Shown: one piece after another, positions 40,305 to 56,915 of the stretch | Numbering within the stretch: the first letter of the stretch is position 1 | Layout: each line of letters begins with the position of its first letter | DNA from: an uncultured Chloroflexia bacterium | Lineage (GTDB): Bacteria > Chloroflexota > Limnocylindria > Limnocylindrales > CSP1-4 | NCBI GenBank assembly: GCA_963813335.1 | Contig: CAWEYL010000001.1 | Coordinates: forward strand, 1,202,281-1,266,280 | Reading direction: 5' to 3' | Length of the DNA stretch: 64,000 nt | Translations under genes and position numbers: made by a program | Notes under the pieces: model-generated | Told to the model about the DNA's origin: nothing | The model's input: only the letters and a program-made list of their open reading frames with translations | The model's database searches: none

Positions 40305-42799
<2,495 letters not shown>

Positions 42800-42864
42800 C
42801 CGCGGCCTCCGGCCCGATCGCCCGAGGGCCGCTTGTCATGTAGCCGACACTTGGTCGTGGGAGC

Positions 42865-42984
42865 GAAACATCCCTGACCATCAGGCGTCCCCTCGTGTGT
42901 CGCGCCGCTCGGCCGACGACCGTCACGAGGGCCAAGGGATGCTGGGGTCCGCGAATCCGCAATGAATGGCACGGTCAGGCGTCC
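42865..42984 (+). promoter_or_regulatory. two tandem ECF-type promoter candidates
   Basis: GAAAC-N16-CGTC (42865-42889) and GCAAT-N16-CGTC (42959-42983), both within a tcaggcgtcc direct repeat. Confidence 0.55.
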
Positions 42985-43562
42985 TATCGATCGTGAACGC
43001 ACTCGTGCTCAGCATGGATGACCTCGAGGTCCTGCCGGCCACCATGGCCATGTCCACCCCTCGAAGCAACGAGATCGTCGGGGCGATCTACGACGACCAC
43101 CAGCGCGAGCTGTACTCCTTCGCGCTGCACGCGTGCCGCGATCGCGATGCGGCCGAGGACCTCGTCCAAGAGTCATTCGTCCGGCTGATGATCGAGGTCG
43201 ATGCCGGGCGGATGCCCACCAACGTCCGGGCGTGGCTCTATCGGGTCGTCGCCAACCTCGCCGTCTCGCGTGGCCGTCGGGCGACCGTGGCCAGGCGCGG
43301 GCTCCACGCGGTGGCAGAACACGAGGAGGACCAGGGCCCGGAGCCCACCTACCTCGATGGCGAACGTCGCTCGGACCTGGAGACCGTGCTCGGCGAGCTC
43401 GCTGCCGACGCCCGCACCGCCCTGCTGATGGCCGCAAGCGGTTTCAGCGGACTCGAGATCGCCGAGGCGATCGGGCGGAGTCCGAACGCCACGCGGACCC
43501 TGATGTGTCGCGCCCGGATCCAGCTCCGCGAGCGACTGATCTCGATGGAGGCGAGCGCATGA
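42966..43562 (+). CDS. ECF RNA polymerase sigma factor (start may be 42993, 43014 or later)
   Basis: DAAEDLVQESF region 2, AWLYRVVAN, region 4 GFSGLEIAEAIG..TRTLMCRAR. Confidence 0.92.
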   Translation: MARSGVLSIVNALVLSMDDLEVLPATMAMSTPRSNEIVGAIYDDHQRELYSFALHACRDRDAAEDLVQESFVRLMIEVDAGRMPTNVRAWLYRVVANLAVSRGRRATVARRGLHAVAEHEEDQGPEPTYLDGERRSDLETVLGELAADARTALLMAASGFSGLEIAEAIGRSPNATRTLMCRARIQLRERLISMEASA

Positions 43563-46500
43563 CCGATCACGCGCGAGCCCGCGAACTGGCGGCGGCGGCC
43601 TTCGACTTCGAGCTCTCGAACGAGGATCGCGCCGAGCTGCGCGAGCATCTCGCCGGCTGTGCCCAGTGCCACGTCTTCAACGAGGGCCTGGCTGCAGACG
43701 CCCGCGGCCTTGCCGCGCTTCCGCTCGAGGACGCGCCGACCGCCGTGCGATCCCGGATCGTGGACGGCGAGCCGGCCGCCACCGGCTCGGTGCCGGCCGA
43801 CAGCGCAGCCCCGGCGCCGAAGCGACCCACGCCGTTGCTGCCATTCCGCTACCGCCGTCCGGCCGCCCTCGTCGCGACCGCGGCGGTCGTCGTGGCGCTC
43901 GTCGGCGGCGTGCTCGTCTGGGGGTCGCACCCAGGCGACGGCGGGATCGCGGCAGCCAGCCCGTCAGCGAACGTCCCGACCGATTCCGGGTGGCAGACCA
44001 TCGGCCCGGGCGGGTCGCCCGGCGCTCCCGGCGCGTCCGGCGCTCCCGGCACCCCTGAAGCGACCCCAGCCACCGGCGAGTGGCACGCCGTCGCAGCCCT
44101 GGTCCCCGAGGGCTCCGACACGGCGACCGTCGAGCTCGATGGCAGCTTCCGATTGACGAGCCTCGACGGCACGCCGCCGGCCGAGCTCGCGGCTCGCGTC
44201 CGGGTCGACCCAGCGGTCGCCCTCACGGTGACACCGGAGCCCGACGGCAACGGCGTGCGCCTGACGCCAAGCGAGCCCCTCGCGGCCGGCACTGTCTATC
44301 GCTTCACGCTCGCCGGCCCCAACGGCGAGACCGCGGACTCGTGGGCCTTCCAGACGAGCGCCCCGCTCCACGTGGTTTCCACGATCCCGGAAGACCATGA
44401 GACAACGGTGGCGCCGAACACGGGCATCGAGATCACGTTCGACCAGGACGGCGTCACCGACGCCGCCTCGCACGTGACCATCTCGCCGAAGACGGCCGGC
44501 CGGTTCGAGCAGCATGGCCGCGTCCTCGCCTTCATCCCGGACGCCCTCAAGCCCGGCACCATCTACACAGTGACCGTCGCCCGCGGCATCACCGCCGGGT
44601 CCGGCGGGAAGCCGATGGCGGACGACCTCCAATTCCAGTTCGAGACCGACAAGAGCGGATCGGGCGTGACGGGCACCACCTTCGAATTCGCGGACCCCCT
44701 GTTCGAATCGGGCACGAGCAGCCGACCGATCATCTCGATGTGGTCGAGCTCCGACGAGGACACGGCGCCACCCAAGTCGGCCCAGCTGGACATCTATCGT
44801 CTCGGATCGCTCGATGCCGCGATCGCCGGCTACCGCCAGCTCGTGGCGTTCCCCGCATGGGCCAACTGGTCCAACGAGCACCCGATCGACACCGGCCCGC
44901 TGACGAAGGTCTTGTCGCTCGATGCGCGGTTCGCCGACCGTCCGAAGGACTCCGGCGGCCTTCTGTGGACCGCCCTGCCGGAGCCACTGCCGGCGGGCTG
45001 GTACGTCGTCGAGCATCCGTCGGCGCGATATCCGATCCAGGCCATCCTCCAGGTGACCGACATCGCCTCGTACCTGCTGGTCACCGACACGAAGACCCTC
45101 CTCTGGACGAACGACCTCGCCACGGGCGGCCCGCTCGTCGCGGCGACGGCCGCGGTGGCCGGCCCTGGCACCGATCTCGGGCCGACCGACGCCGATGGCG
45201 TCCTGACGGTCGCGACCCCGGCGAGCCTGCAGCCGCCTGCCGAGGGTCGGACCTGCGGACTGGACTGCGTCCAGGTCATCAGCGTGACCAAGGGCGGCCG
45301 ATCTGCCTTCGTCCCCGCGTCCAACCCGAGCCCCGAAGGGAAGGGTGGATATGACGGCGGGTCCGGAAACCACTGGCTGACGTTCGCGACCGACCGGAGC
45401 ATCTACCGACGCACGGACACGGTGAACCTGTGGGGGATGATCCGCGACCGGAGCACCGGCAATGTGCCGGCCAAGGTCGTGGTCCGCCTCCAGGCCATGG
45501 ACGAGGAGTTCATCGCGAGCGGGGCACCGATCTCGACGCTCAGCCTGGAACCCGGGTCGACCGGCACGTTCAGTGGATCCATCGCGCTCGCCGACGTGCC
45601 GGAGGGCTGGTACGAGTTGGAGCTGGTCGTCGGGACGGACGTCGTCCGCCGGGCCGATTTCCAGGTCAGCCGGATCCTCAAGCCGGCCTACCGACTCGAG
45701 GTCGACACCGGCCATCGAGCTTACGTGGTCGGCGAACGCATCAAGGCCACCATCACGGCCTCGTTCTTCGAGGGCTCGCCCGTGCCCGGCGTCCCGCTCC
45801 GCGTCTCGCAGGGAGGCGACCGGTCGGTGACGACCGACAAGACCGGCACAGCGATCGTCCGGACGACAGCCCGACTCCAAGAGCCGTCGAATCGGAGCGA
45901 TCGCGAGGTGCAATCCGTGTCCGTCGCTCCGCGCCGGGCGGAGGAAGGGCAGATCCAGGGCGCGTCGCGCGAGTTCCTGGTGTTCCCCGGCAGCCGAACG
46001 ATCACGGCGGAGTCGAGGATCGCCACCGGCCGTGTCCGCGTCGCCGGCACCATCAACACCCTGGATCGCGCTGGACTCGAGCGGGATCTGGCAGCAGGCG
46101 TGTCACCCTGGGAGGTCGATCCACGCGGCGCTCCCGTGGCCGGGGCCACGGTGACTGCCAGGTTCATCGAGCTCATCCCGGTCAAGAAGCGCATCGGCAC
46201 CGACTACGACTTCATCGAGAAGCGGACCGTCCCGGTCTACGAGTACTCGACGCGGCAGCGCGCTGCCGGATCCGTCCGGGTCCGCACGGATGCGAAGGGC
46301 CGGTTCTCGGCATCGGTGCCGGCCGGCAGCGGTCACCACGACTACAGCGTGATCCTCAGTGTCGCCGACCCCGACGGCCACGTGACCGAGCAGGAAACCT
46401 ATGCCAGCGACGTCGCGGCGCCCGCCTACGACCAATCCCGGGAGCCGATGCTGGTCTCGACTGGCGTCGAGCCGACGGGCGGTTACAGCGTCGGCACCCC

Positions 46501-48901
46501 GGTCGACCTCACGCTGCGGGATCCGGCGCACCCGGCCGACAAGACGAGCCGGTACCTCTTCCACCTGACCCAGCTCGGGCTCCGCGACGTGGTCGTCCAG
46601 CGGTCCCCCCGCTACGTCGGCGCATTCGAGTCCTGGGCGGTCCCGAACATGCTCGTCACGGGCGTCCGGTTCACCGGCTCGGCCTACACCTCGGCCACGT
46701 ACTCGGCGTCGTTCCGGACCCAGGATCGCCGCATCGATGTCCAGCTGAGCACGGACAAGGCGCGTTACAGCCCGCGCGACCAGGTGACGGTCACCGTGCG
46801 CACGACGAACGCGGTCGGAAAGCCGATCGCCGCGGCCGTCGTCCTCCGGGCGATCGACGAGAAGCTGTTCGTCCTGGGAGGCGCCCAGCTCGACGAACCG
46901 CTGATCGATATCTACACCTCCCTCGACTCGGGGATCATCGCCAGCTACACGTCGCATCGCGGGCCGCCGCTTGATGAATACGGAGGTGGGGACACCACCG
47001 GCGGCGGCGGTGGGGACGACTTCCGGGACCAGTTCCGCGACAGCCTGCTGTTCAGGACGGTCGTCACCGGCGCGGATGGCCGAGCCTCGGCATCGTTCCG
47101 CCTCTCGGACGACCTGACGTCCTGGCGGATCCTCGGATCGGCCTTCAGCGCCGACGTCAAGGCCGGGACCGGGTCGACCGAGGTCGCCGTCGGGCTGCCC
47201 TTCTTCGTCGATGCCACGATCGCGCCTGAGTATCTCGTCACCGACCGCCCCACGATCATCGCCCGCGCATTCGGGACCGCGCTCACGCCGGCGGCCAAGG
47301 TGAAGATCTCCGTGATCTCGCAGAGCCTTGGGCTCAAGGGCGCTCCGGTCACGGCGTCCGCCTTCAGCGATGTCCCGATCCGGCTGCCCGCACTGACCCT
47401 CGGCCAGCACTCCGTGACGATCGTCGCGACGTATGGGAGTGGTGCGTCCGCCCGCACGGACCGGCTGGTCCGCACCTTCACGGTCGTGCGGTCGCGCCTG
47501 GCCACGACCAGGACGTCCTACGTCGACCTGACCGGCACGGTCCGCCCCGATGGCGGCACTGGGCTGACGAGGGTGGTCGTCTCCGACAGCTCCGCGGGTC
47601 GATACCTGCCGCTCGTGACCGACCTGGCGGCCGGAGACGGCGTCCGCCTCGAGCGCGCATTGGCCGCCGCCGCGGCGAGGGGCCTGCTGACCGACCGGTT
47701 CGGCGAGTCCGAGGGGGAGATCCCCGCGGGCAACTTCGACGGCACCCGCTACCAGCAGGAGGACGGCGGCATCTCGCTCGTCCCGGCAGGCGGCAGCGAC
47801 CTCCAGGTCTCGGCGCTCGCGGCCCTCACGGGCCCCGAAGAGTTCTCCAAGGATTCCCTCCGGCAGTACTTCTCCGATATCCGTTCCAACCAGGCATCGA
47901 CCCGTGAACGCGTCATCTACGCGCTGGCCGGGCTGGCGGGCCTCCACGCCACGGTCCTGCCCGAGATCCAGGCGGCGGCAGCCGACGACGGCCTGACGAT
48001 CCGTGAACGGCTGATGCTCGGCCTGGGTGCGGCCGCCCTGGGCGACGCGAAGACGGCCCGGACCATCGCCGACTCGCTGATCACCGGCTACGGCGAGCAG
48101 CAGGCGGGATGGGCCCGGCTGCGGGTCGGCACGACCGTCGCCGACGGCGTCGAGGGCACAGCGATGATGGCGATCCTGGCCGCGGCCACGGGCGAGCCCC
48201 TCGCGCCGGCGTTCTGGGCCTATGTCGAGGCGAACCCCATGCCCGACCTGGTGGTCGACCTCCATGCCATCGGGTACGTCGAACGACTCCTCGAACGCCT
48301 GCCGCCGCGCGCCGCCAGCTTCGCCTACACGGTCGGCGGGACGCGCACGGTCGTCGATCTCAAGCCGGGCGAGACGTTCTCGATGGTCGTCACCGCAACC
48401 CAGCTCAAGTCGCTCGCCATCGAGCGACTGACCGGGTCGATCGGCGTGGCGACGGACTGGCGCGAGCCGGTCAAGGCTTCCACCATCGAGCGCGACCCGG
48501 ACATCACCGTCACGCGCTCGGTGCGCCCGAGCGGCACCGTCGGGTCCGGCGACCTCGTCACCGTGGACCTCAAGGTCAAGTTCGGGAAGCAGGCCCCGAT
48601 GGGCTGCCACCTAGTCACCGAGCTCGTGCCGTCTGGGCTGGTCGCGGTCGGCGACACCGAGAGCGTCGCGTACGAGAACGGCGAGGAGCTGCCGGCAGGC
48701 ATCACGATCCCGTTCGACCAGACGGGACAGCGCGTGTCGTTCTGCGCCGACAACCAGACCAACGACCACGTCGCCGCCCTGCGCTACGTGGCCCGGGTCA
48801 TCACGCCAGGGACCTACACGTGGGAGCCGGCGGTCGTCGAGTCGCGGACGAGTGCCAACCACGCCGCGCTGACCGGCTCGGGCACCGTCACGATCCGCTG
48901 A
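43559..48901 (+). CDS. zinc anti-sigma (zf-HC2) - TM - Ig-like - bacterial alpha-2-macroglobulin fusion, 1780 aa
   Basis: HLAGCAQC; TM helix; Ig-like VVSTIP..IEITF; TDRSIYRRTDTV, TDKARYSPRDQV, RDQFRDSLLF..LSDDLTSWR, RYVARVITPGTYTWEPA MG/A2M motifs; ATGA overlap with sigma. Confidence 0.85.
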   Translation: MTDHARARELAAAAFDFELSNEDRAELREHLAGCAQCHVFNEGLAADARGLAALPLEDAPTAVRSRIVDGEPAATGSVPADSAAPAPKRPTPLLPFRYRRPAALVATAAVVVALVGGVLVWGSHPGDGGIAAASPSANVPTDSGWQTIGPGGSPGAPGASGAPGTPEATPATGEWHAVAALVPEGSDTATVELDGSFRLTSLDGTPPAELAARVRVDPAVALTVTPEPDGNGVRLTPSEPLAAGTVYRFTLAGPNGETADSWAFQTSAPLHVVSTIPEDHETTVAPNTGIEITFDQDGVTDAASHVTISPKTAGRFEQHGRVLAFIPDALKPGTIYTVTVARGITAGSGGKPMADDLQFQFETDKSGSGVTGTTFEFADPLFESGTSSRPIISMWSSSDEDTAPPKSAQLDIYRLGSLDAAIAGYRQLVAFPAWANWSNEHPIDTGPLTKVLSLDARFADRPKDSGGLLWTALPEPLPAGWYVVEHPSARYPIQAILQVTDIASYLLVTDTKTLLWTNDLATGGPLVAATAAVAGPGTDLGPTDADGVLTVATPASLQPPAEGRTCGLDCVQVISVTKGGRSAFVPASNPSPEGKGGYDGGSGNHWLTFATDRSIYRRTDTVNLWGMIRDRSTGNVPAKVVVRLQAMDEEFIASGAPISTLSLEPGSTGTFSGSIALADVPEGWYELELVVGTDVVRRADFQVSRILKPAYRLEVDTGHRAYVVGERIKATITASFFEGSPVPGVPLRVSQGGDRSVTTDKTGTAIVRTTARLQEPSNRSDREVQSVSVAPRRAEEGQIQGASREFLVFPGSRTITAESRIATGRVRVAGTINTLDRAGLERDLAAGVSPWEVDPRGAPVAGATVTARFIELIPVKKRIGTDYDFIEKRTVPVYEYSTRQRAAGSVRVRTDAKGRFSASVPAGSGHHDYSVILSVADPDGHVTEQETYASDVAAPAYDQSREPMLVSTGVEPTGGYSVGTPVDLTLRDPAHPADKTSRYLFHLTQLGLRDVVVQRSPRYVGAFESWAVPNMLVTGVRFTGSAYTSATYSASFRTQDRRIDVQLSTDKARYSPRDQVTVTVRTTNAVGKPIAAAVVLRAIDEKLFVLGGAQLDEPLIDIYTSLDSGIIASYTSHRGPPLDEYGGGDTTGGGGGDDFRDQFRDSLLFRTVVTGADGRASASFRLSDDLTSWRILGSAFSADVKAGTGSTEVAVGLPFFVDATIAPEYLVTDRPTIIARAFGTALTPAAKVKISVISQSLGLKGAPVTASAFSDVPIRLPALTLGQHSVTIVATYGSGASARTDRLVRTFTVVRSRLATTRTSYVDLTGTVRPDGGTGLTRVVVSDSSAGRYLPLVTDLAAGDGVRLERALAAAAARGLLTDRFGESEGEIPAGNFDGTRYQQEDGGISLVPAGGSDLQVSALAALTGPEEFSKDSLRQYFSDIRSNQASTRERVIYALAGLAGLHATVLPEIQAAAADDGLTIRERLMLGLGAAALGDAKTARTIADSLITGYGEQQAGWARLRVGTTVADGVEGTAMMAILAAATGEPLAPAFWAYVEANPMPDLVVDLHAIGYVERLLERLPPRAASFAYTVGGTRTVVDLKPGETFSMVVTATQLKSLAIERLTGSIGVATDWREPVKASTIERDPDITVTRSVRPSGTVGSGDLVTVDLKVKFGKQAPMGCHLVTELVPSGLVAVGDTESVAYENGEELPAGITIPFDQTGQRVSFCADNQTNDHVAALRYVARVITPGTYTWEPAVVESRTSANHAALTGSGTVTIR

Positions 48902-48913
48902 TCCCTGCCGGGC

Positions 48914-49750
48914 CTAACCCTCGGCGGGCGGCGTCGGGGTCGGGGTCGGAGTGGGCGTCGGAGTGGGCGTGGGGGTCGGGGTAGGTGTCGGCGTCGGGGC
49001 CGGCCATTCCTGCTGGCGCCACAGGTACTCGCGCAGCGTGAGCCCGCTGGCGCGGACCTTCGCGGCGACGTCCCGCCCGACGTAGCGGTAGTGCCACGGC
49101 TCGTACATGTAGCACGTGCGGGTCGTCTTGCCCTTCGGGTAGCTCATGACGAAGCCGTACTTCCAGGCGTTCGCGGCGAGCCACTTGCCCTGCTTGCTGA
49201 GCCCCCAGTCGGTCCAATCCCATGGGATCGAGCCGCCGTAGGCGCGGAAGTCGATCGACGTGCCCATCTGGTGCTCGCTGTGCCCCGCCCGGGCGCTCTC
49301 CTTGAGCGCGTATGCGTAGCCATGGACGCGCACCCAGTAGGCGAACGTCGACTTCTGGGTGGTGTAGCTGCGGTACCCCGACTGCACGACGAGACGCGCA
49401 CCGGCCGCCCGTGCCGCCGACGCCAGTGCGGCGAGGTCGGCGATGACGAAGCCCCGGACGTACTGGCCGCTGTTGAGGCCGGCCGTCGAGGTGTTCCTGA
49501 GGTCGGTCGGGCTGTAGCCCGAACCCAGCCGGAGCGCGGAGTCGAGGACCGTCCGCTGCCACTGCCCCAGCGAGCGCTGCTTGGTGAGCGTGTCGGCGAC
49601 CTTGCAGGTGGGCAGCGCCGGGGCCGCCGCGGCGCTGGCGGCGAACCCGGTCGCGAGCGCGACGACGATCGCGAGGGCGAACAGCGACGCAGCCGACGAG
49701 CGGCCATGGGAGCGGGCACGAGGCCCGGCGATGGTCGGGCGGAACGGCAT
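48914..49750 (-). CDS. M15B (VanY-like) D,D-carboxypeptidase
   Basis: SGYRSY..Q, SARAGHSEHQMG..D, YEPWHYRYVG; C-terminal PT repeat. Confidence 0.92.
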   Translation of the reverse strand: MPFRPTIAGPRARSHGRSSAASLFALAIVVALATGFAASAAAAPALPTCKVADTLTKQRSLGQWQRTVLDSALRLGSGYSPTDLRNTSTAGLNSGQYVRGFVIADLAALASAARAAGARLVVQSGYRSYTTQKSTFAYWVRVHGYAYALKESARAGHSEHQMGTSIDFRAYGGSIPWDWTDWGLSKQGKWLAANAWKYGFVMSYPKGKTTRTCYMYEPWHYRYVGRDVAAKVRASGLTLREYLWRQQEWPAPTPTPTPTPTPTPTPTPTPTPTPPAEG

Positions 49751-49835
49751 GACAGCGGGAAGCGTACGACGGGGCGCCCGCCATCGGCCACTCCCCCGAA
49801 CGTACCGGCGGCCGCTGGGCCGCCGCGGCGGGCGT

Positions 49836-51416
49836 CTAGGGCGCGACGCTCGGGGTCGGGTCCGCCGGCAGCGACGGCGTGGGGGTCGGCTTCGTCGTGG
49901 GCTTCGTCGTGGGCTTGGCCGTGGGCTTCGCGGTCGGCCTGGCCGTCGGCCTCGCGCCGCAGCCGCTCACGCCGCTGCCGCCGGTGGTCTTCGCCGCTCC
50001 CTTCGGGACCGCGTAGGTCTTCTTGGGCAGCGAGCCGTCGGTCGGGAAGAGATCCGCGGCGAGCGCCCGGATCGCCTTGAGGTTCGGGATCAGGATCGAG
50101 CCGCGAGGATCGTTCCTGCCCGACGACACCAGCGGATGGCCGATCACCGCCCGGTACGTCCCGTCGCGGCCGATCTTGACGGCCGCGTCGGCCAGGTCGG
50201 GCAGCAGCTTGCGGGGGACGTTGGTCGTGACGGTCTGGCCGACCGCCTTGAGCAGGCCGATCGGGTCGTTGATGAAGCCGCCCTTGACCACCCGGTCGCG
50301 GATGCCCGAGAGGACCTCCTGCTGGCGGGCGGCCCGCGTGAAGTCGCTCTCGCCGGCGGCCTTGCGGACGCGTGCATAGGCGAGCGCCTGGTTCCCCGTG
50401 AGATGGTGCTTGCCGGCGGTGATCGAGAACCCGTGCGTGAACCCGTACTCGTCGTAGCGCGGGTCGCAGAAGGCGTGGGCGACGTTCACGTCCACCCCGC
50501 CGAGGGTATTGACGACCTGGACGAAGCCACCGAGGGTGACCGCCGCGTAGTAGTCGATCTTGACCCCGAGCAGCTTGCCGAGCGCGCCCATCAGCACGTC
50601 GAACCCGGTCCCGTCGTTGTTCGGGAACTGCTTCGGGTGGTTTCGGACGTACGAGACGAGCCCGTTGATCTTGCCGCGGAACGTGCGCCCATCGGCGAGC
50701 GGCACATCCACCATGTCGCGCGGCACGGACACCATCGACACGGTATCGGTCGCCGGGTCCATCGAGACGACGATCATCGTGTCGGTCCCGTACGTGTTGC
50801 GCCCGACCCCGGCGTCGACGCCGACGATGACGCCGGTGATCCGCGGGTCCAGCGGGACCGGTGTGGGCGAGGGCGACGCGCTCGGCGAGCCAGATGGGGA
50901 CGGCGCGGCGGGGATGAGATTGCTGGGATCGGGCTCCGGCTGCTGCGACGGCAGGATGGCCGTCGGCGATGGTTCGACGAACACCTCGTCCGCCGTCTCG
51001 CGGGCGACCTCGGTCGCGTACCCCGCGTAGGCCTGCGGAGCGATGATCAGGAACAGGAGCAGGAAGATCGGCAGGATGTCGCCCCGCCCGAGTCGCGGCA
51101 GCCCGCGTGCCATCAGGCTCGACCCGACCGCCAGCAGCCGCCACACGAGCAGGACGCCCTGGAAGGCCAGCAGGCCCCAGATGACCTCCGATTCGAGGAG
51201 GGTCGCGACCAGCCGCGGGCCAGACGTCGTCAGGACGATGAAGACCGCGGCGACGACGGCGAGCAGCGTCGGGGCCAGGAAGATGGCGCCGAGCAGCCGC
51301 CGGCCGGCCACCAGGTGGCCGAGGCCGGGGACGATGGCGTCGAGGATGGCGGGGACGTAGCGCGAGCGTCGGCCCGGCGTGGCGGACGTGACGGTGTCCG
51401 CGGCGTCGTCTGTCAC
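49836..51416 (-). CDS. LCP (LytR-CpsA-Psr) family cell-wall polymer ligase
   Basis: N-terminal TM helices, TDTMIV, SVPRD, KING, ALAYARVR..DFTRAARQQ. Confidence 0.92.
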   Translation of the reverse strand: MTDDAADTVTSATPGRRSRYVPAILDAIVPGLGHLVAGRRLLGAIFLAPTLLAVVAAVFIVLTTSGPRLVATLLESEVIWGLLAFQGVLLVWRLLAVGSSLMARGLPRLGRGDILPIFLLLFLIIAPQAYAGYATEVARETADEVFVEPSPTAILPSQQPEPDPSNLIPAAPSPSGSPSASPSPTPVPLDPRITGVIVGVDAGVGRNTYGTDTMIVVSMDPATDTVSMVSVPRDMVDVPLADGRTFRGKINGLVSYVRNHPKQFPNNDGTGFDVLMGALGKLLGVKIDYYAAVTLGGFVQVVNTLGGVDVNVAHAFCDPRYDEYGFTHGFSITAGKHHLTGNQALAYARVRKAAGESDFTRAARQQEVLSGIRDRVVKGGFINDPIGLLKAVGQTVTTNVPRKLLPDLADAAVKIGRDGTYRAVIGHPLVSSGRNDPRGSILIPNLKAIRALAADLFPTDGSLPKKTYAVPKGAAKTTGGSGVSGCGARPTARPTAKPTAKPTTKPTTKPTPTPSLPADPTPSVAP

Positions 51417-51565
51417 GGGCGCAGGGTAGCAGCGTTCGCCGCGATGGGCTCCGGTCCCACTCGCGGGTAGTACGGTCGGGTGACGGTCGACGGCCATCCG
51501 GTGGCGTACTGTCAGGTCCTCGGGGGCAGTACTTAGAGAGGCGATGCATCGCCGCCGAGGGGAGA

Positions 51566-54500
51566 ATGCCCGGACGTAGCCGGTCCACCGCGTCCCCGTT
51601 CCTGGTGCTCTGCCAGGTCGTCGCGGTCGTCTCATGGCTGATCACCCCCAGCGCCGGGCTGGCCGCGAACTCGGGCAACCTGCCCGCCGCGGCGCAGTCC
51701 GCGTCAGCGACGGCGGAACCCACCGCCGAACCGTCAGTCGAACCGAGCGCCGAACCCACCGCTGCGCCCACGGCCGAGTCCACGCCGGAACCGACCGCCG
51801 AGCCCACGCCCGAGCCCACCTCCGAGCCGACCGCAGAGCCCACCTCCGAGCCCTCGGTCGAGCCCTCCGTCGAACCTAGCGCCGAGCCCACCGCCGAGCC
51901 GATCCCCGCGGCCACGCCGGTGCCCGCCATCGACACCTTCATCGTGGCCTTCGCCCCGGGCACCTCGGCCAGTGCCCAGGCCGCCAGCCTGGCCGCCGCC
52001 GGCGCCATTGCGGTCGACTCGATCCCGGTCCTGCGGATGCAGGTCATCGAGGCCGCTCGCGGCTCCGACACGGTCGCCACGCTCCGCGCCGACGGCAACG
52101 TCACGCGCGTCGAAGCGGACCACGTCCGCGCCGCCGAGGCGACCCCCAACGACACCCGCTACGACGACCAGTGGTCGCTGGCCACGCATCGGCTGGGACC
52201 AGGTCTACGGCGCCGTGCACCCGTCGGGGTCGGCGGTCGTCGCGGTCCTCGACACCGGCGTCGACGGCGCCACGCCCGACCTCGCCGGCCAGCTCGTGGC
52301 CGGCACCAGCATCCTCGACGGCTCGGACGGCCGGAGCGACCCCAACGGCCACGGCACCGCGATGGCCGGGATCATCGCCGCTGCGACCGGCAACGGCACG
52401 GGCATCGCCGGCATCGGCTTCGACGGCGTGCGGGTCATGCCGGTCACCGTCCTCGGGGCGGACGGCCTGGGCCAGGACAGCGACATCATCGCGGGCATCG
52501 TCTGGGCCGTCGACCACGGCGCCGACGTCATCAACATGTCCTTCAGCAACCCGGGCTTCTCGACCGGCCTGCAGGCCGCCATCGACTACGCCTGGGCGAA
52601 CGACGTCGTGGTCGTCGCGGCGGCCGGCAACGACGGCTCGCAGACGGCCACCTTCCCGGCCGGCGACCGCGGGGTCGTCGGCGTAGCCAACACGGACCGC
52701 TTCGACACGCTGGACCCGTCGTCGAACGCCGGCGACAGCGTGTTCCTGGCCGCCCCCGGGACCGACATCACGACGCTGCTCCCGGGCGGCGGCTCCACCA
52801 GCGTCAGCGGCACGTCGGCGTCGGCGGCCGAGGTCGCGGCCGCGGCGGCCCTGCTGCGCGCCATCGACCCGGCTGCCTCCAACGGCGTGATCGTGTCCCG
52901 CCTGGCGCGGACCGCCGACGCGGTCGGCTCGGTGGCCCAGACCGGCAACGGCCGGCTCAACCTGGCCCGCGCCGCGGCCGACACCGGCACCGACTTCGTC
53001 CAGCCGGTCGGGGCCACCCCGATCGGCAGCGGTGGGCCGTTCGTGGGTCCGTATTCGATCGCGTCCGCCACCGTGAATGGAACGACCACGCTGAACGGCT
53101 CGACGACACCCATCACGGTCGCTCCGGGTGCCTCGATCACCCTCGTGATGCGGGTGACCACGACAGGCATCGGGACCGCCAACGACTGGAACTCGTCGCG
53201 CTGGGCCTTGGCCACCGCGGCACCCGCAGTAGCGGCCATGACCTGCGTCGACCACGCGAATCACGATGGTCCGGGCACCTTCTCCGAGACCATCACCGTC
53301 ACAGCACCGGCAGCGGCCGGGGTCTACAACCTGTACCTGTACGCCTACAACGGCGATGCCTGCGGCGCCGGCCGGAGCGCCCGGTTCACGCGCGCTCGTG
53401 CGCTCGACAACGTCCCCCCGACCGTCACCATCAACCAGGCCGTGGGGCAGGCCGACCCGACCAACGGGGCGACGATCAACTTCAGGGTCGTGTTCAGCGA
53501 GGCGGTCACCGGCTTCGCCACCGGGGACGTGTCGTTCGCCGGCAGCACGGCCGGCGGCGCCCTCGTCGGCACGGTCACCGGCGGCCCGACCACCTACAAC
53601 GTGGCGGTCACCGGGATGACCAGCTCGGGCACCGTCGTGGCCACCATCCCGGCCGCCCGCGCGGTCGACCTCGCTGGCAACGCCAACCTCGCCTCGACCT
53701 CGGCGGACCACACGGTCACCTGGGACGACGTCGCCCCGACGGTGACCATCGATCTCCGGGCGGCCTCGGACACCGGGGTCTCGAACGGGGACGACATCAC
53801 TCGTGCCGCGAGCCTCGTCTTCGACGTGTCCTCCAGCGAGACCGTCGCGGGGTTGGCTGCGAACGACTTCTCGAATGTCGGGACCGCAACCGGTTGCGTG
53901 GTGGGCGCCCCGGCTGGCTCGGGTTCGGCCCACAGGGTGACACTGACCACCTGCTCCCAGGGGACCGTGATCCTGCGGCTCCGGGCGGCCGCGGTCACCG
54001 ACGTCGCGGGCAACGCCAATGCGCTCACCGTCGGGCCGACTGTCACCGTCGATCGGACTTCCCCGACGGTGACCATCGACCAGGCCGCCGCGCAGGCTGA
54101 CCCGACCAACGCGAGCCCGATCGACTTCACGGTCGTGTTCAGCGAGCCGGTCAGCGGCTTCGCCACCGGAGACGTGACTGTCGGCGGTTCGTCGGGCGGG
54201 GTCAAGACCGGCACGGTCACCGGCGGCCCGACCACCTACAACGTGGCGGTCACGGGGATGACCACCTCGGGCACGGTCGTGGCCACCATCGCGGCGGCCC
54301 GGGCGACCGACCTCGCCGGCAACAACAACACCGCCTCGAGCTCCACGGACAACAGGGTGACCTGGGATGTCGTCCCCCCGACCGTCACCATCAACCAGGC
54401 CGTGGGGCAGGCCGACCCGACCAACGGGGCGACGATCAACTTCAGGGTCGTGTTCAGCGAGGCGGTCACCGGCTTCGCCACCGGGGACGTGTCGTTCGCC

Positions 54501-56915
54501 GGCAGCACGGCCGGCGGCGCCCTCGTCGGCACGGTCACCGGCGGCCCGACCACCTACAACGTGGCGGTCACCGGGATGACCAGCTCGGGCACCGTCGTGG
54601 CCACCCTCGGTGCCGGGGTCGCCATCGACCTCGCTGGCAACGCCAACCTCGCCTCGACCTCCGCGGACCACACGGTCACCTGGGATCGGGCGACACACCT
54701 GGCCTTCCAGCAGCAGCCGACCGACACGGTCTACGGGAGTGGGATCAGTCCGACCGTGACGGTCGCCATCCTCGATGACAACGGCCTGGTCGTCTCCGAG
54801 CGCGCTGGGTCGATCACGTTGAGCCCGGCGCCAGCGGGCGCGTTGCAGGTCGAACCTGTGACCGTCGTGGTGGTCAACGGCGTGGCGACGTTCACCGGGC
54901 TGATCGCTGACCAGGTCGGCACCTTCACGCTGGACGCGACCAGCGCCGGCCTCGTCGGCACCACGAGTGCATCGTTCGACGTGACTCCGGCGGCCCTGGT
55001 CGTGACCGCGGACGACCGGACCAAGACGTACGGCCAGGCAGTCGTGTTCGCCGGGACCGAGTTCACCGCCAGCGGGCTGCTGAACGGCGACACCGTGACC
55101 AGCGTGACCCTGGCCTCGCCCGGCGCGGCCGCGGCCGCCACCGTGGCCGGCAGCCCGTATGCCATCACCCCGTCCGCAGCCGTCGGCAGCGGCCTGGGCA
55201 ACTACGCCATCACCTACGTCGACGGCGAGCTCGACGTGACTCCGGCGGCCCTGGTCGTGACCGCGGACGACCGGACCAAGACGTACGGCCAGGCAGTCGT
55301 GTTCGCCGGGACCGAGTTCACCGTGAGCGGGCTGCTTGGGACCGACACGGTCACGGGCGTGACCCTGGCCTCGCCCGGCGCGGCCGCGGCCGCCACCGTG
55401 GCCGGCAGCCCGTATGCCATCACCCCGTCAGCAGCCGTCGGGAGCGGCATGGGCAACTACGCGATCACCTATGTGGACGGCGCCCTGACGGTGATGCCGG
55501 CGACGGCGGTCATCGCCGTGACCGGCTACACGGTCGTCTACGACGGGCTCCCCCATGCCGCCACGGGCACCGCCACCGGCGTCTTCGGCGAGGACCTCTC
55601 GGCCGGCCTCGACGTGTCGGCCACGACGCACACCGCGGTCGGGGCCTCGACCGACCCGTGGACGTTCAGCGACCCGGCGGGCAACTACGCGCCCGCTGCC
55701 GGCACGGTCGACACCGAGATCACTCCGGCGGCCCTGGTCGTGACCGCGGACGACCGGACCAAGACGTACGGCCAGGCAGTCGTGTTCGCCGGGACCGAGT
55801 TCACCGTGAGCGGGCTGCTTGGGACCGACACGGTCACGGGCGTGACCCTGGCCTCGCCCGGCGCGGCCGCGGCCGCCACCGTGGCCGGCAGCCCGTATGC
55901 CATCACCCCGTCCGCAGCCGTCGGCAGCGGCCTGGGCAACTACGCGATCACCTACGTCGACGGCGCCCTGACGGTCGACCCCGCCCCCCTGACGATCACG
56001 GCGGACGACCAGTCGAAGTCGTCCGGGCTGCCCTTCACCTTCAACGGGATCGAGTTCTCCGTCGCCGGGCTCGCCGGCGGCGATAGCGTGGTCTCGGCGA
56101 CGCTGACGAGCCTTGGCGCCGCGGCCGCTGCCGCACCAGGCACCTACCCGATCGACATCTCGGCGGCGACCGGGGCGGGCCTCGCGAATTACACCATCAC
56201 GTATATCCAAGGCACCTTCACGGTCGGGAACACCACTCCGGCCATCGGGGACGCAACGACCACCACGACGGCGACCACCGCCGTGGATGGCTCGGTCTCC
56301 GTCACCGACCCGGATCCAGGCCAGACCGTGACCCTGACGATCACGGTCGCTCCGACCCACGGGACCGCGACGGTCGCCGCCGATGGATCTTTCACCTACA
56401 CACCGACCGGCACGTACACGGGCGACGACACCTTCACGATCCAGGGCTGCGACGACTTCGCGCCGCCCGCCTGTGACACGGGCACGGTGACGATCTCGGT
56501 CTATCCGGTCGCCGTTCCCGACACCGGGCTGACGAGCGACGGCAAGACGGTGGAGGTCGACGTCCAGGCGAACGACATCGGCGACGCAGGCGATCCCGAG
56601 ATCGTCTCCGGACCGGCGCACGGGACGGCGACGATCGGGTCGATCATCTATACCCCGAACGCCGGCTTCAGCGGGACGGACCAGGTCGTGTACCAGATCT
56701 GCAGCCCGAACGAACCCACATTGTGCGACCAGGCGACGCTGACGATCACCGTCACCGCCCCCATGCCCGCGACCGACGCCGATCCGGTGCTGCAGACCCC
56801 GCTCGGTCCGGTCCCATCACGGCTGTTCGGGCTGGCGATGATCATCGTCGTCACGACGATGGCGGGCATCGGCGCCCTGGCATCCACGGCCCGCCGCCGC
56901 CGTCCGGGCGATTGA
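51566..56915 (+). CDS. secreted, cell-wall anchored S8 subtilase with Ig-like, MBG-like and cadherin-like repeats; +1 frameshift near 52180
   Basis: Signal peptide, AEPT linker, propeptide; triad VLDTGV, NGHGTAMAG, SGTSASA; C-terminal MPATD, TM helix and RRRR. Confidence 0.88.
53411..54685 (+). repeat. near-identical ~315-bp direct repeats (53411-53725, 54371-54685) encoding Ig-like domains
   Basis: Same nucleotide sequence at 960-bp offset; a diverged copy lies at ~54060-54365. Confidence 0.9.
54981..55975 (+). repeat. three ~255-bp repeats encoding MBG-like domains
   Basis: TPAALVVTADDRTKTYGQAVVFAGTEFT repeated at ~54981, ~55236 and ~55720. Confidence 0.9.

What the first reader, a model, noticed from the sequence alone, without database searches (positions are those of the whole stretch)
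42865..48901. ECF sigma factor paired with an anti-sigma/alpha-2-macroglobulin fusion: candidate protease-sensing signalling system
Seen in the sequence: the sigma gene overlaps (ATGA at 43559-43562) a single uninterrupted 1780-aa ORF. It begins with a zinc anti-sigma motif (HLAGCAQC, ~43646-43669), followed by one TM helix (~43860-43925), Ig-like domains and a full set of bacterial alpha-2-macroglobulin MG/A2M motifs. A Gly-rich segment (DEYGGGDTTGGGGGDD) sits where the bait region is expected. Established knowledge: ZAS-TM anti-sigmas release ECF sigmas after regulated proteolysis, and bacterial A2Ms are bait-cleavage protease traps, usually lipoproteins linked to PBP1C. Inference: the A2M here has been repurposed as an extracellular receptor, so that cleavage by a foreign or own protease triggers sigma release. 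I do not recall this architecture being characterised.
Basis: partly seen in the sequence, partly recalled or inferred. Interest (0 to 1): 0.9.

Follow-up and report, generated by a model that had tools for sequence, protein, structure and literature searches.

The report
Anti-sigma factor fused to protease trap
An uncultured soil and wetland bacterium (Chloroflexota) encodes a stress-response sigma factor whose membrane-bound inhibitor carries a complete alpha-2-macroglobulin-type protease trap on the outside of the cell, which could let the cell sense protease attack and make more trap in response.

Summary
An ECF sigma gene (ORF from 42966, likely start 43014, ends 43562) overlaps by ATGA an uninterrupted 1780-aa ORF (43559-48901).

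That protein has, in order:
- a four-helix zinc anti-sigma domain (His4, His30, Cys34 and Cys37 invariant in 50 of 50 relatives);
- one TM helix and a disordered linker;
- a complete alpha-2-macroglobulin (A2M) body, whose model matches E. coli ECAM at Foldseek E 5e-50.

It has no thioester. The Gly-rich loop sits at the bait position but is conserved, not hypervariable. Sigma binding is supported by a complex model (0.86, best control 0.31).

The fusion recurs in 20 of 80 related Candidatus Limnocylindria loci, and 17 of those 20 have the sigma abutting.

New here: a conserved ECF promoter (AAC-N16-CGTC) precedes the operon. The only other strong match in this genome precedes a serpin lipoprotein. 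The same motif precedes 14 of 50 unfused A2M homologues, against 0 of 1133 control windows. The trap is therefore a regular output of this sigma family, and in the fused form it may also be the sensor.

Protease sensing remains an inference (about 0.4-0.45). A paralogous sigma shares the promoter type, and the serpin site is absent from the closest relative. I found no description of this architecture in the papers searched.

The parts
42863..42895 (+). Distal ECF-type promoter-like site: AAC at 42867-42869, 16-nt spacer, CGTC at 42886-42889.
   Evidence: PWM built from 25 sites upstream of orthologous sigma genes, own window excluded, scores it 25.7. Only two sites in the 2.54-Mb genome score above 16.
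42957..42989 (+). Proximal, degenerate copy of the same motif (AAT instead of AAC). It is strong in most relatives but weak here.
   Evidence: It aligns with the conserved proximal site of the relatives. Its PWM score here is only -0.6.
43014..43562 (+). ECF sigma factor gene. The ORF is open from ATG 42966. The conserved start is probably ATG 43014. The TGA stop is at 43560-43562.
   Evidence: Pfam Sigma70_r2 1.4e-12 and Sigma70_r4_2 7.8e-9. NCBIfam TIGR02937 sigma70-ECF scores 59.9 bits against a cut-off of 42.9, with no named equivalog reached. Start inferred from the alignment of orthologues.
43559..48901 (+). Anti-sigma/A2M fusion gene, 1780 aa, overlapping the sigma gene by ATGA. Shine-Dalgarno GGAGG at 43547-43551.
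   Evidence: No indels in the independent metagenome contigs that cover 42945-44062 piecewise.
43568..43765 (+). Cytoplasmic class I anti-sigma domain (four helices, residues 4-69) with zinc-type ligands His4, His30, Cys34 and Cys37. The HxxxCxxC motif is at 43646-43669.
   Evidence: AF2 helices 4-16, 21-33, 35-52 and 61-69, with block-mean pLDDT 84-97 for residues 1-50. H4, H30, C34 and C37 are invariant in 50 of 50 ZAS-bearing relatives. Profile hits: RsiW 5wuq_C 1.1e-6 and RslA 3hug_B 0.0036. Complex model with the sigma scores 0.86, best control 0.31.
43844..43921 (+). Single transmembrane helix (residues 96-121).
   Evidence: AF2 helix 96-121. Hydrophobic stretch read from the translation.
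43922..44089 (+). Disordered Pro/Gly/Ser/Ala-rich juxtamembrane linker (residues 122-177). It is a candidate site-1 cleavage region.
   Evidence: AF2 pLDDT below 50 for residues 116-170. The cleavage role is inference.
44093..45316 (+). N-terminal beta-sandwich (MG/Ig-like) domains of the A2M body (residues 179-586), including Big_5 at 44360-44647.
   Evidence: AF2 model: nearly all beta strands (two short helices), block-mean pLDDT mostly 80-97. Pfam Big_5 4.8e-15.
45383..46876 (+). Central MG domains up to the bait-region domain. Pfam MG2 covers residues 609-690 and A2M_BRD covers 1050-1106.
46943..47032 (+). Disordered loop at the bait position (residues 1129-1158), containing the conserved Gly-rich motif (residues 1142-1152).
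   Evidence: pLDDT below 50 for fragment residues 545-574. Conserved in all 60 aligned fused and unfused relatives. HMMER aligns it with the Gly/Asp-rich segment of ECAM that lies next to its bait region.
47045..47587 (+). MG7-like domain (Pfam A2M, residues 1163-1221) and the first half of a CUB-like domain.
47588..48298 (+). Helical TED-like domain (residues 1344-1580) without a thioester.
   Evidence: The AF2 model is mainly helical here. There is no CxEQ and no Cys in this domain. The only Cys are 34, 37, 566, 570, 1683 and 1729.
48314..48895 (+). Second half of the CUB-like domain and the C-terminal MG domain (bMG10, residues 1657-1762).
   Evidence: Pfam bMG10 7.3e-7. AF2 model. Aligns with the ECAM C-terminal MG domain but lacks the RDDR/EXMY motifs.

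Best explanation
This is a self-contained, autoregulated two-gene signalling module of an uncultured Chloroflexota bacterium (Candidatus Limnocylindria). It consists of an ECF sigma factor and a single-pass membrane anti-sigma factor. The extracytoplasmic part of the anti-sigma is a complete, thioester-less A2M-type protease trap.

Shown or strongly supported:
- the continuous fusion ORF;
- a zinc-type class I anti-sigma domain that is modelled to clamp sigma regions 2 and 4;
- one TM helix;
- a full A2M domain set (MG domains, bait-position loop, CUB, TED-like, C-terminal MG);
- an ECF-type promoter (AAC-N16-CGTC) in front of the operon.

Inferred mechanism. The ectodomain sits on the outer face of the membrane as a protease trap. 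Proteolytic attack hits the bait-position loop (residues 1129-1158) or the disordered juxtamembrane linker (122-177). This changes or removes the ectodomain and licenses a site-2 protease; an M50 protease is encoded in the genome. The cytoplasmic anti-sigma stub is then degraded and the sigma is freed. The sigma transcribes its own operon, which replaces the consumed trap and re-imposes inhibition. In this genome it probably also transcribes a lipoprotein serpin. The trap would thus be sensor, effector and main product of the pathway.

My odds, step by step:
- real fusion protein: 0.95;
- functional sigma/anti-sigma pair: 0.85;
- autoregulation through the motif: 0.8;
- proteolysis of the ectodomain as the natural signal: about 0.4-0.45.
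For: Architecture:
- Domain and profile hits.
- AF2 models: residues 585-1780, pLDDT 83.5, pTM 0.71; residues 1-620, pLDDT 80.
- Foldseek top hits: ECAM 5a42 at 5.1e-50 and Salmonella A2M 4u48 at 1.6e-49.

Sigma/anti-sigma pair:
- H4, H30, C34 and C37 are invariant in 50 of 50 relatives.
- Complex model ipSAE 0.86 in three runs, best of 3 controls 0.31. That mark was reached by 58 of 80 solved complexes and 2 of 110 mismatched pairs. Partner pLDDT 78; the runs agree in at least 70% of contacts; contacts fall in both sigma-2 and sigma-4.

Conservation:
- 20 of 80 related loci carry the ZAS motif in frame.
- 17 of those 20 have the sigma gene abutting on the same strand.

Promoter and regulon:
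- The conserved motif lies upstream of the orthologous sigma genes.
- A genome-wide PWM scan gives only two sites above 16: this operon (25.7) and a site 88 nt upstream of a 594-aa lipoprotein serpin (26.3). The next best is 15.5.
- The serpin carries the hinge sequence EKGTEAAAAT. That this is typical of inhibitory serpins is recalled knowledge.
- The motif lies upstream of 14 of 50 unfused A2M homologues, against 0 of 1133 same-size control windows. It also lies directly upstream of a fused gene that has no adjacent sigma (L028, score 22.5).

Supporting context:
- An M50 site-2 protease is present in the genome (170 bits).
- Thioester-less A2M can still trap a protease (MagD; abstract of PMC5764988).
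Against: - No experiment and no RNA data exist for this organism.
- The loop at the bait position is short (about 30 residues) and conserved in sequence in fused and unfused relatives. Broad-spectrum baits are variable.
- There is no thioester, and the RDDR/EXMY motifs that couple bait, TED and C-terminal MG domain in ECAM are missing.
- A cut about 1000 residues from the membrane does not by itself shorten the ectodomain, which is what known site-2 proteases need.
- The serpin link is weak as a conserved feature. The serpin was found with this query in only 2 of 10 other fused-type genomes searched. The closest relative has the syntenic upstream region without the motif.
- A paralogous sigma in this genome (47.6% identical, contig C6) has the same promoter type, so it may be the one that reads the serpin promoter.
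- Across the family, the other genes behind the motif are mostly envelope lipoproteins and membrane proteins, not protease inhibitors.
- The complex model may pass by likeness to solved ECF/anti-sigma structures.
Confidence: 0.45

Rival explanations
1. Envelope or peptidoglycan-state sensor. The pair is a real sigma/anti-sigma pair, but the A2M-fold ectodomain does not report proteases. It acts as a large scaffold that monitors the cell wall or binds a wall polymer or ligand. The sigma controls a general envelope regulon.
For: - The loop is conserved rather than variable, and there is no thioester.
- Convergent VanY and LytR-CpsA-Psr genes lie downstream and recur in 5 of 14 loci compared.
- Motif-preceded genes in related genomes are mainly lipoproteins, some with LysM-like or weakly SH3b-like domains, transporters and membrane proteins.
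- Bacterial A2Ms are linked to peptidoglycan repair in the literature (introduction of PMC4498604).
Against: - The whole A2M domain set, including the TED-like and CUB-like domains and a disordered loop at the bait position, is kept under selection. A mere scaffold would not need it.
- A serpin lies behind the same promoter type in this genome.
- A type II A2M traps a protease.
Confidence: 0.27
2. Homeostat without an outside signal. The fusion only couples the level of free sigma to the amount of correctly inserted A2M protein. The anti-sigma domain gives negative feedback on trap synthesis, and ordinary turnover of the protein sets the output.
For: - The operon is the only conserved target. 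In 4 relatives searched with up to 3 mismatches, only the operon's own promoter (found in 3 of the 4) and one coding-sequence false positive recurred.
- The A2M gene is an output of this promoter type even when unfused.
Against: Membrane ZAS anti-sigmas studied so far respond to signals (RsiW; RsiV as in the abstract of PMC6066255). Repeated retention of the sigma next to the fusion (17 of 20 loci) fits a switch as well as it fits a homeostat.
Confidence: 0.13
3. Redox or zinc switch. The signal is sensed in the cytoplasm by the His/His/Cys/Cys site of the ZAS domain, as in thiol-oxidation-sensitive anti-sigmas. The A2M body is a passenger or only an output.
For: The four candidate zinc ligands are invariant in 50 of 50 relatives. 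The profile matches RslA of M. tuberculosis (3hug_B, E 0.0036). That RslA is redox-sensitive is recalled knowledge.
Against: Many ZAS domains bind zinc only structurally (recalled). A 1600-residue ectodomain joined through a TM helix argues for outside sensing. This rival does not explain why the fusion partner is always the A2M body.
Confidence: 0.1
4. Annotation artefact. The ZAS-coding part is not translated together with the A2M part, either because the true start is downstream (as in the public gene call) or because of an assembly frameshift.
For: The public gene call for this protein (P0003, 1703 aa) starts at residue 78 and omits the ZAS domain.
Against: - The ZAS residues are conserved at protein level in frame with the A2M body in 20 of 80 loci and in 53 of 103 long database homologues.
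- The ATGA overlap with a GGAGG upstream is present.
- Contigs from 3 of the 4 independent runs laid cross the junction without indels.
Confidence: 0.03

Closest known systems
RsiW/SigW of Bacillus subtilis and RslA/SigL of Mycobacterium tuberculosis (membrane ZAS anti-sigma factors)
   Same: N-terminal class I anti-sigma domain with HxxxCxxC, followed by one TM helix and co-transcribed with an ECF sigma. The family profile hits RsiW (5wuq_C, 1.1e-6, residues 7-76) and RslA (3hug_B, 0.0036). A site-2 protease is present in the genome.
   Different: Those anti-sigmas have small extracytoplasmic parts. The PDB chains that matched are 80 and 108 residues long. Here the outside part is about 1600 residues with a full A2M fold. 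The site-1 event is unknown.
RsiV/SigV (anti-sigma that is itself the receptor for lysozyme)
   Same: The logic is the same: the extracytoplasmic part of the anti-sigma directly meets a hydrolase that attacks the envelope, and the sigma is released by regulated intramembrane proteolysis (abstract of PMC6066255, seen in the listing).
   Different: The sensor fold is unrelated. RsiV binds its enzyme, whereas here cleavage by the enzyme is proposed. No homology was tested or claimed.
Type I bacterial A2M: E. coli ECAM/YfhM and Salmonella SaA2M
   Same: Same overall fold and domain order, and the best structural and sequence matches. Both are anchored to the cytoplasmic membrane facing outward. 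Both have a Gly/Asp-rich segment at the end of the bait region.
   Different: - No CxEQ thioester and no RDDR/EXMY motifs.
- Anchored by a TM helix with a cytoplasmic domain, not by a lipid.
- No PBP1C-like family was hit among the ten neighbouring ORFs scanned.
- Sequence identity is only 13-15%.
Type II bacterial A2M: MagD of Pseudomonas aeruginosa
   Same: It lacks the thioester yet traps a protease (abstract of PMC5764988). It is associated with the inner membrane.
   Different: MagD belongs to a six-gene mag operon and needs MagB for stability. None of that context was seen here, although homology to MagA-F was not searched. MagD has no anti-sigma domain. Orthology with MagD was not tested.

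Membership tests
ECF (group 4) sigma-70 factors | Only regions sigma-2 and sigma-4; small size. | tested here: met
   Pfam Sigma70_r2 and Sigma70_r4_2 only, 182-198 aa. TIGR02937 scores 59.9 bits, above the cut-off of 42.9.
ECF (group 4) sigma-70 factors | Assignment to a named ECF group of the 2021 re-classification. | not testable with these tools
   The group HMMs are not on hand. No NCBIfam equivalog reached its cut-off. The main text of PMC7826278 has no mention of macroglobulin, A2M, serpin or Chloroflexi. Its supplements are closed.
ECF (group 4) sigma-70 factors | Autoregulatory promoter with an AAC -35 element and a CGT -10 element. | tested here: met
   The AAC-N16-CGTC motif is conserved upstream of the orthologous sigma genes; it was matched in 17 of 18 loci scanned (27 sites). 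The window's site scores 25.7 against a PWM that excludes it. Transcription itself was not tested.
Class I / zinc-binding anti-sigma (ZAS) domain | HxxxCxxC motif plus an upstream fourth ligand. | tested here: met
   H30, C34, C37 and H4 are invariant in 50 of 50 relatives. Zinc binding itself cannot be tested here.
Class I / zinc-binding anti-sigma (ZAS) domain | Curated family model match (Pfam zf-HC2). | tested here: inconclusive
   20.6 bits against a cut-off of 22.2. NCBIfam antisigma NF052375 scores 32.6 against a cut-off of 100. The family profile does hit RsiW at 1.1e-6.
Class I / zinc-binding anti-sigma (ZAS) domain | Helical bundle that binds sigma-2 and sigma-4. | tested here: met
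   Four helices in the AF2 model. Complex model scores 0.86, best control 0.31, with contacts to sigma residues 19-59 and 122-175. This is a model only and may reflect likeness to solved complexes.
Alpha-2-macroglobulin superfamily (fold) | MG domains, bait-region domain, CUB, helical TED and C-terminal MG, in that order. | tested here: met
   AF2 secondary structure and domain order. Foldseek probability 1.00 to ECAM, SaA2M, A2ML1, CD109 and C3/C5.
Type I (thioester) bacterial A2M, ECAM type | CxEQ thioester in the TED. | tested here: not met
   No CxEQ in the query, and only one such match among the 119 listed relatives. There is no Cys in the TED-like domain.
Type I (thioester) bacterial A2M, ECAM type | Lipoprotein anchor and pbpC (PBP1C) neighbour. 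| tested here: not met
   The N-terminus is a cytoplasmic domain plus a TM helix. The neighbours scanned are metY-like, an alpha/beta hydrolase, VanY, LCP and an S8 protease. The genome was not searched for pbpC.
Type II (thioester-less) bacterial A2M, MagD type | A2M fold without a thioester. | tested here: met
Type II (thioester-less) bacterial A2M, MagD type | mag operon partners (MagA, B, C, E, F) and orthology to MagD. | not tested
   No search with Mag proteins was made. The neighbours seen are of other families.
Anti-sigma factors released by regulated intramembrane proteolysis | Site-2 (M50) protease in the genome; a site-1 cleavage in the ectodomain. | tested here: inconclusive
   M50 is present (170 bits). 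The site-1 event and protease are unknown and cannot be tested here.

The most novel reading that the evidence does not exclude
One polypeptide is at once protease trap, protease sensor and the main product of the pathway it controls. Consumption of the membrane-anchored A2M by a foreign protease frees the sigma. The sigma then rebuilds the trap and, in this genome, switches on a serpin. This would be a consumption-coupled anti-protease immune circuit in a bacterium.

In its boldest form, the conserved Gly-rich loop is a decoy for a particular class of enzyme, such as glycine-specific cell-wall endopeptidases of competitors or predators, rather than a broad bait.
Probability: 0.3. Interest if true: 0.8.

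Novelty: new variant of a known kind. Interest (0 to 1): 0.66.

Why it matters
ECF sigma/anti-sigma pairs are a major bacterial signalling mechanism, but for most groups the signal and the sensor domain are unknown. Bacterial A2Ms are thought to be passive protective traps.

A conserved fusion of the two would link protease attack directly to transcription. It would give the thioester-less A2Ms a readable output. It also offers a testable design, in which a bait loop controls a promoter, that could be re-targeted by changing the bait.

The work also shows that in Candidatus Limnocylindria, an abundant but uncultured soil and freshwater lineage, A2M-like genes are regular targets of one ECF promoter type.

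The fusion is hidden in public annotation. The gene call for this protein starts after the anti-sigma domain, and the precomputed domain lists of the 120 listed relatives never include zf-HC2.

Tried and rejected
The sites were then read from the stored loci inside the script.
- One search used a wrong spacer (N11) and returned only chance or coding matches. It was repeated with N10.
- A second motif match shared by four relatives is the coding C-terminus of a carboxyltransferase gene in front of a biotin carboxylase. It was rejected as a promoter.
- Conservation of the serpin target:
  - The serpin was not found with this query in 8 of 10 other genomes.
  - The motif is absent upstream of it in the closest relative.
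  - It is therefore not a conserved regulon member.
- S8 subtilase 3 kb downstream as a cognate protease: it is shared only with the closest relative (2 of 14 loci) and has no motif. It was not pursued.
- No RNA holder was listed among the sequencing runs, so expression could not be examined.
- A search with residues 1-130 alone among long proteins gave only 3 hits, all of this family. It says nothing about independent fusions in other phyla.
- The protein atlas returned only A2M-family clusters.
- Literature:
  - 'anti-sigma' + 'alpha-2-macroglobulin' + 'ECF' gave 0 papers.
  - 'anti-sigma' + 'macroglobulin' gave 6 papers. The one I opened used the terms separately. The other five were judged irrelevant from titles and abstract starts.
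  - The supplements of the two ECF classification papers, which list domain architectures, could not be opened and may bear on novelty.

Full report
**Observation.** The window is about 72% G+C. The sigma ORF runs from 42966 to 43562, and a long ORF in another frame ends at 48901. From the ATG at 43559 it gives 1780 residues without a stop. The ATG shares its A with the last sigma codon, and the sigma stop TGA follows, so ATGA at 43559-43562 is correct. GGAGG lies 7 nt upstream.

Pfam finds Sigma70_r2 and r4_2 in the first protein. In the second it finds zf-HC2 (7-38), Big_5 (268-363), MG2 (609-690), A2M_BRD (1050-1106), A2M (1163-1221) and bMG10 (1657-1762). Three of these (zf-HC2, MG2, A2M_BRD) are just under their curated cut-offs.

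Contigs from 3 of the 4 independent soil or wetland metagenome runs laid cross the sigma/anti-sigma junction, and others cover the ZAS-TM-linker part. No insertions or deletions were seen, but no contig spans the whole gene.

**Anatomy.** AlphaFold2 with family alignments gave two usable models.
- Residues 1-620 (pLDDT 80): four helices (4-69), a disordered stretch, a TM helix (96-121), a disordered Pro/Gly/Ser-rich linker (to about 177), then beta-sandwich domains up to 586.
- Residues 585-1780 (pLDDT 83.5, pTM 0.71): more beta-sandwich domains, a low-confidence loop at 1129-1158, another MG domain, a CUB-like domain split by a mainly helical domain (1344-1580), and a C-terminal MG domain.

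Foldseek puts E. coli ECAM (5a42, 5.1e-50) and Salmonella A2M (4u48, 1.6e-49) first, followed by A2ML1, CD109 and complement C3/C5, at 12-15% identity. A family profile also hits ECAM/YfhM (1e-10) and, with its N-terminus, the anti-sigma RsiW (1.1e-6) and RslA (0.0036).

The ectodomain (about 1600 residues) therefore equals a whole bacterial A2M. There is no thioester. The protein has six Cys (34, 37, 566, 570, 1683, 1729), none in the helical domain, and no CxEQ. In the HMMER alignment to ECAM, the RDDR and EXMY motifs of the C-terminal MG domain are not kept. In ECAM those motifs contact the TED and the cleaved bait.

The Gly-rich segment (1142-1152) lies in the disordered loop at the bait position. 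It aligns with a Gly/Asp-rich segment beside the ECAM bait region; Arg923-Leu942 is disordered in cleaved ECAM (passages of PMC4498604). The segment is conserved in all 60 aligned relatives.

**Sigma/anti-sigma pair.** In 50 relatives that carry the N-terminal domain, His4, His30, Cys34 and Cys37 are invariant. I recall this four-ligand pattern from zinc anti-sigma domains.

A complex model of the sigma (182 aa) with residues 1-95 scored 0.86 in all three runs, against 0.31 for the best of 3 controls. That mark was reached by 58 of 80 solved complexes and 2 of 110 mismatched pairs. Partner pLDDT was 78, and the runs agreed in at least 70% of contacts. Contacts fall on sigma residues 19-59 and 122-175, that is on both sigma-2 and sigma-4. 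ECF/anti-sigma complexes have been solved, so this shows likeness, not binding. An M50 site-2 protease is encoded in the genome.

**Distribution.** The genome is a 2.54-Mb, 81%-complete assembly. Named relatives are MAGs of Chloroflexota / Candidatus Limnocylindria, including CSP1-4. A few are binned under other phyla.
- The protein database holds 202 relatives at E <= 0.001 among 8000 scored candidates.
- 216 stretches in the species-representative genomes encode a relative, of which 80 were kept.
- Within the class, 21 of 201 genomes sampled have a match.
- Of the 80 loci, 20 have HxxxCxxC in frame upstream of the A2M body.
- Of those 20, 17 have the sigma gene ending exactly at the fusion's start. 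One of these is cut by the contig end and one has the sigma split over two frames. Three lack it (L028, L037, L058).
- Of the other 60 loci, 10 are cut at the 5' end. The remaining 50 have only a short tail and a TM helix, and 3 of these 50 have a sigma upstream.
- Beyond the pair, gene order is not conserved. VanY and LCP genes follow in 5 of 14 loci compared, and the large S8 protease in 2 of 14.

A FastTree of 103 long homologues was built on the ectodomain only, with the first 200 residues cut off. It puts all 53 ZAS-bearing proteins in one clade of 88 and needs at least 7 gains or losses. Eleven unfused proteins keep a remnant of the N-terminal sequence. The root is a midpoint root only, and some 'unfused' database entries may be short gene calls.

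**Promoter and targets.** Upstream of the orthologous sigma genes there is a conserved AAC-N16-CGTC motif, often in two tandem copies. I built a matrix from 25 such sites, excluding this window, and scanned both strands of the whole genome.
- Only two sites exceed 16. One is 42863-42895 in front of this operon (25.7).
- The other is on contig C3 (26.3), 88 nt upstream of a 594-aa lipoprotein whose C-terminal 410 residues are a serpin (Pfam 1.2e-86). It carries the hinge EKGTEAAAAT.
- The third site (15.5) precedes a paralogous sigma (47.6% identical). Its ZAS anti-sigma has a different ectodomain that shares a weakly SH3b-like domain with the serpin's N-terminus. Either sigma may therefore read the serpin promoter.

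The serpin link is not conserved. Orthologues were found in 2 of 10 other fused-type genomes. In the closest relative, the upstream region is syntenic up to the point where the motif stands here, and the motif is missing.

The motif does lie just upstream of 14 of 50 unfused A2M homologues (score >= 14), against 0 of 1133 control windows of the same size in the same loci (maximum 12.2). It also lies upstream of a fused gene without an adjacent sigma (L028, 22.5).

A pattern search in 121 genomes of the family (up to 2 mismatches) gave 22 matches, against 11 for the reversed control. Behind the better sites it found mostly lipoproteins, membrane proteins and a sigma gene.

**Mechanism.** What is shown is a conserved, translationally coupled sigma/anti-sigma pair with an A2M ectodomain and a family-specific ECF promoter in front of it. 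The link between the same promoter type and A2M genes holds whether or not they are fused.

What is inferred is the signal. The reading I favour (about 0.4-0.45) is this: proteolysis of the exposed ectodomain leads to regulated intramembrane proteolysis and sigma release, and the main response is resynthesis of the trap, plus the serpin here. Type II A2M can trap a protease without a thioester (abstract of PMC5764988).

The points against are the conserved short loop, the missing coupling motifs and the distance of the loop from the membrane. The mostly non-inhibitor regulon and the ambiguity caused by the paralogous sigma also count against. The disordered juxtamembrane linker is an alternative or additional cleavage target.

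The rivals are an envelope or peptidoglycan-state sensor (0.27), a signal-free homeostat (0.13), a cytoplasmic redox or zinc switch (0.10) and an annotation artefact (0.03).

**Comparison and novelty.** It works like membrane ZAS anti-sigmas of the RsiW/RslA kind and, in logic, like RsiV, which is itself the receptor for lysozyme. Its outside part belongs to the A2M fold and resembles the thioester-less type II class. It fails the defining features of the ECAM type that I tested (thioester, lipid anchor, PBP1C neighbour).

I found no paper that joins anti-sigma factors and A2M. The main texts of the two ECF/anti-sigma classification papers do not mention it. Their supplementary tables were closed and could list it. 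I did not test whether similar fusions exist in other phyla.

I rate it a new variant of a known kind, of clear interest to people who work on ECF signalling or bacterial A2Ms. It is limited by the lack of any experimental or expression data for an uncultured organism.

Noticed in passing
own genome, contig C3 (locus L103:8810-10588, minus strand); promoter-like site at G000:C3:206682-206714: A lipoprotein serpin (lipobox, Pro/Ser-rich linker, weakly SH3b-like domain, then a serpin domain with an inhibitory-type hinge). It lies behind the strongest match in the genome to the ECF promoter motif.
   Followed up: yes
own genome, contig C6:72341-74316 (locus L172): A paralogous module: an ECF sigma 47.6% identical to the window's, plus a 404-aa ZAS-TM anti-sigma. 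The ectodomain of that anti-sigma shares a domain with the serpin's N-terminus. Its own promoter-like site scores 15.5. This makes target assignment between the two sigmas ambiguous.
   Followed up: partly
window 51972-56915 (+): A 1647-aa secreted-type S8 subtilase with MBG, Big_9, Big_12, Big_13 and cadherin-like domains, 3 kb downstream of the fusion gene. It is shared only with the closest relative (2 of 14 loci compared).
   Followed up: partly
window 48914-51635 (-): VanY-type D-Ala-D-Ala carboxypeptidase and LytR-CpsA-Psr genes, convergent with the fusion gene. The VanY ORF's coordinates begin 12 nt after the fusion gene's stop. The pair recurs downstream in 5 of 14 loci compared.
   Followed up: partly
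protein P0003 and the Pfam lists: The public gene call for this protein starts at residue 78 and drops the anti-sigma domain. None of the 120 listed relatives has zf-HC2 among its precomputed domains. The fusion is therefore invisible in automatic annotation.
   Followed up: yes
model m3c73cc964999 (residues 585-1780): The AF2 model superposes better on protease-activated ECAM (4ziq and 4rtd, TM 0.50) than on native ECAM or SaA2M (TM 0.31-0.32). This may only reflect the model's choice of conformation.
   Followed up: no
proteins P0064-P0075, P0084 and others: Unfused relatives begin with a remnant of the fused family's first residues but lack the zinc motif. This suggests secondary loss of the anti-sigma domain.
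   Followed up: partly
loci L138, L140, L145, L146: The promoter pattern also matches the conserved coding C-terminus of a carboxyltransferase gene just before a biotin carboxylase gene in four relatives. This is a false positive worth remembering in regulon scans.
   Followed up: yes
L058:5264-7773 (-): In one relative, a second sigma and a 695-aa ZAS protein lie divergently next to a fused gene that has no sigma of its own on its strand.
   Followed up: partly
loci L023, L043, L048, L058; L101: In several long-read MAGs the fusion ORF or its sigma is split over frames in the deposited assembly. For example, database protein P0005 has only 1243 aa. Assembly indels and real decay could not be told apart.
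   Followed up: no
window 40371-42799 (+): A Cys/Met-metabolism PLP enzyme (O-acetylhomoserine sulfhydrylase-like) and an alpha/beta hydrolase (homoserine acetyltransferase-like) lie directly upstream. They look like housekeeping genes unrelated to the module.
   Followed up: no
loci L173-L177, L192; L160, L162, L165: In related genomes the same promoter motif precedes lipoproteins. One has a LysM-like sequence and some have the weakly SH3b-like domain. This suggests an envelope lipoprotein regulon for this sigma family.
   Followed up: partly
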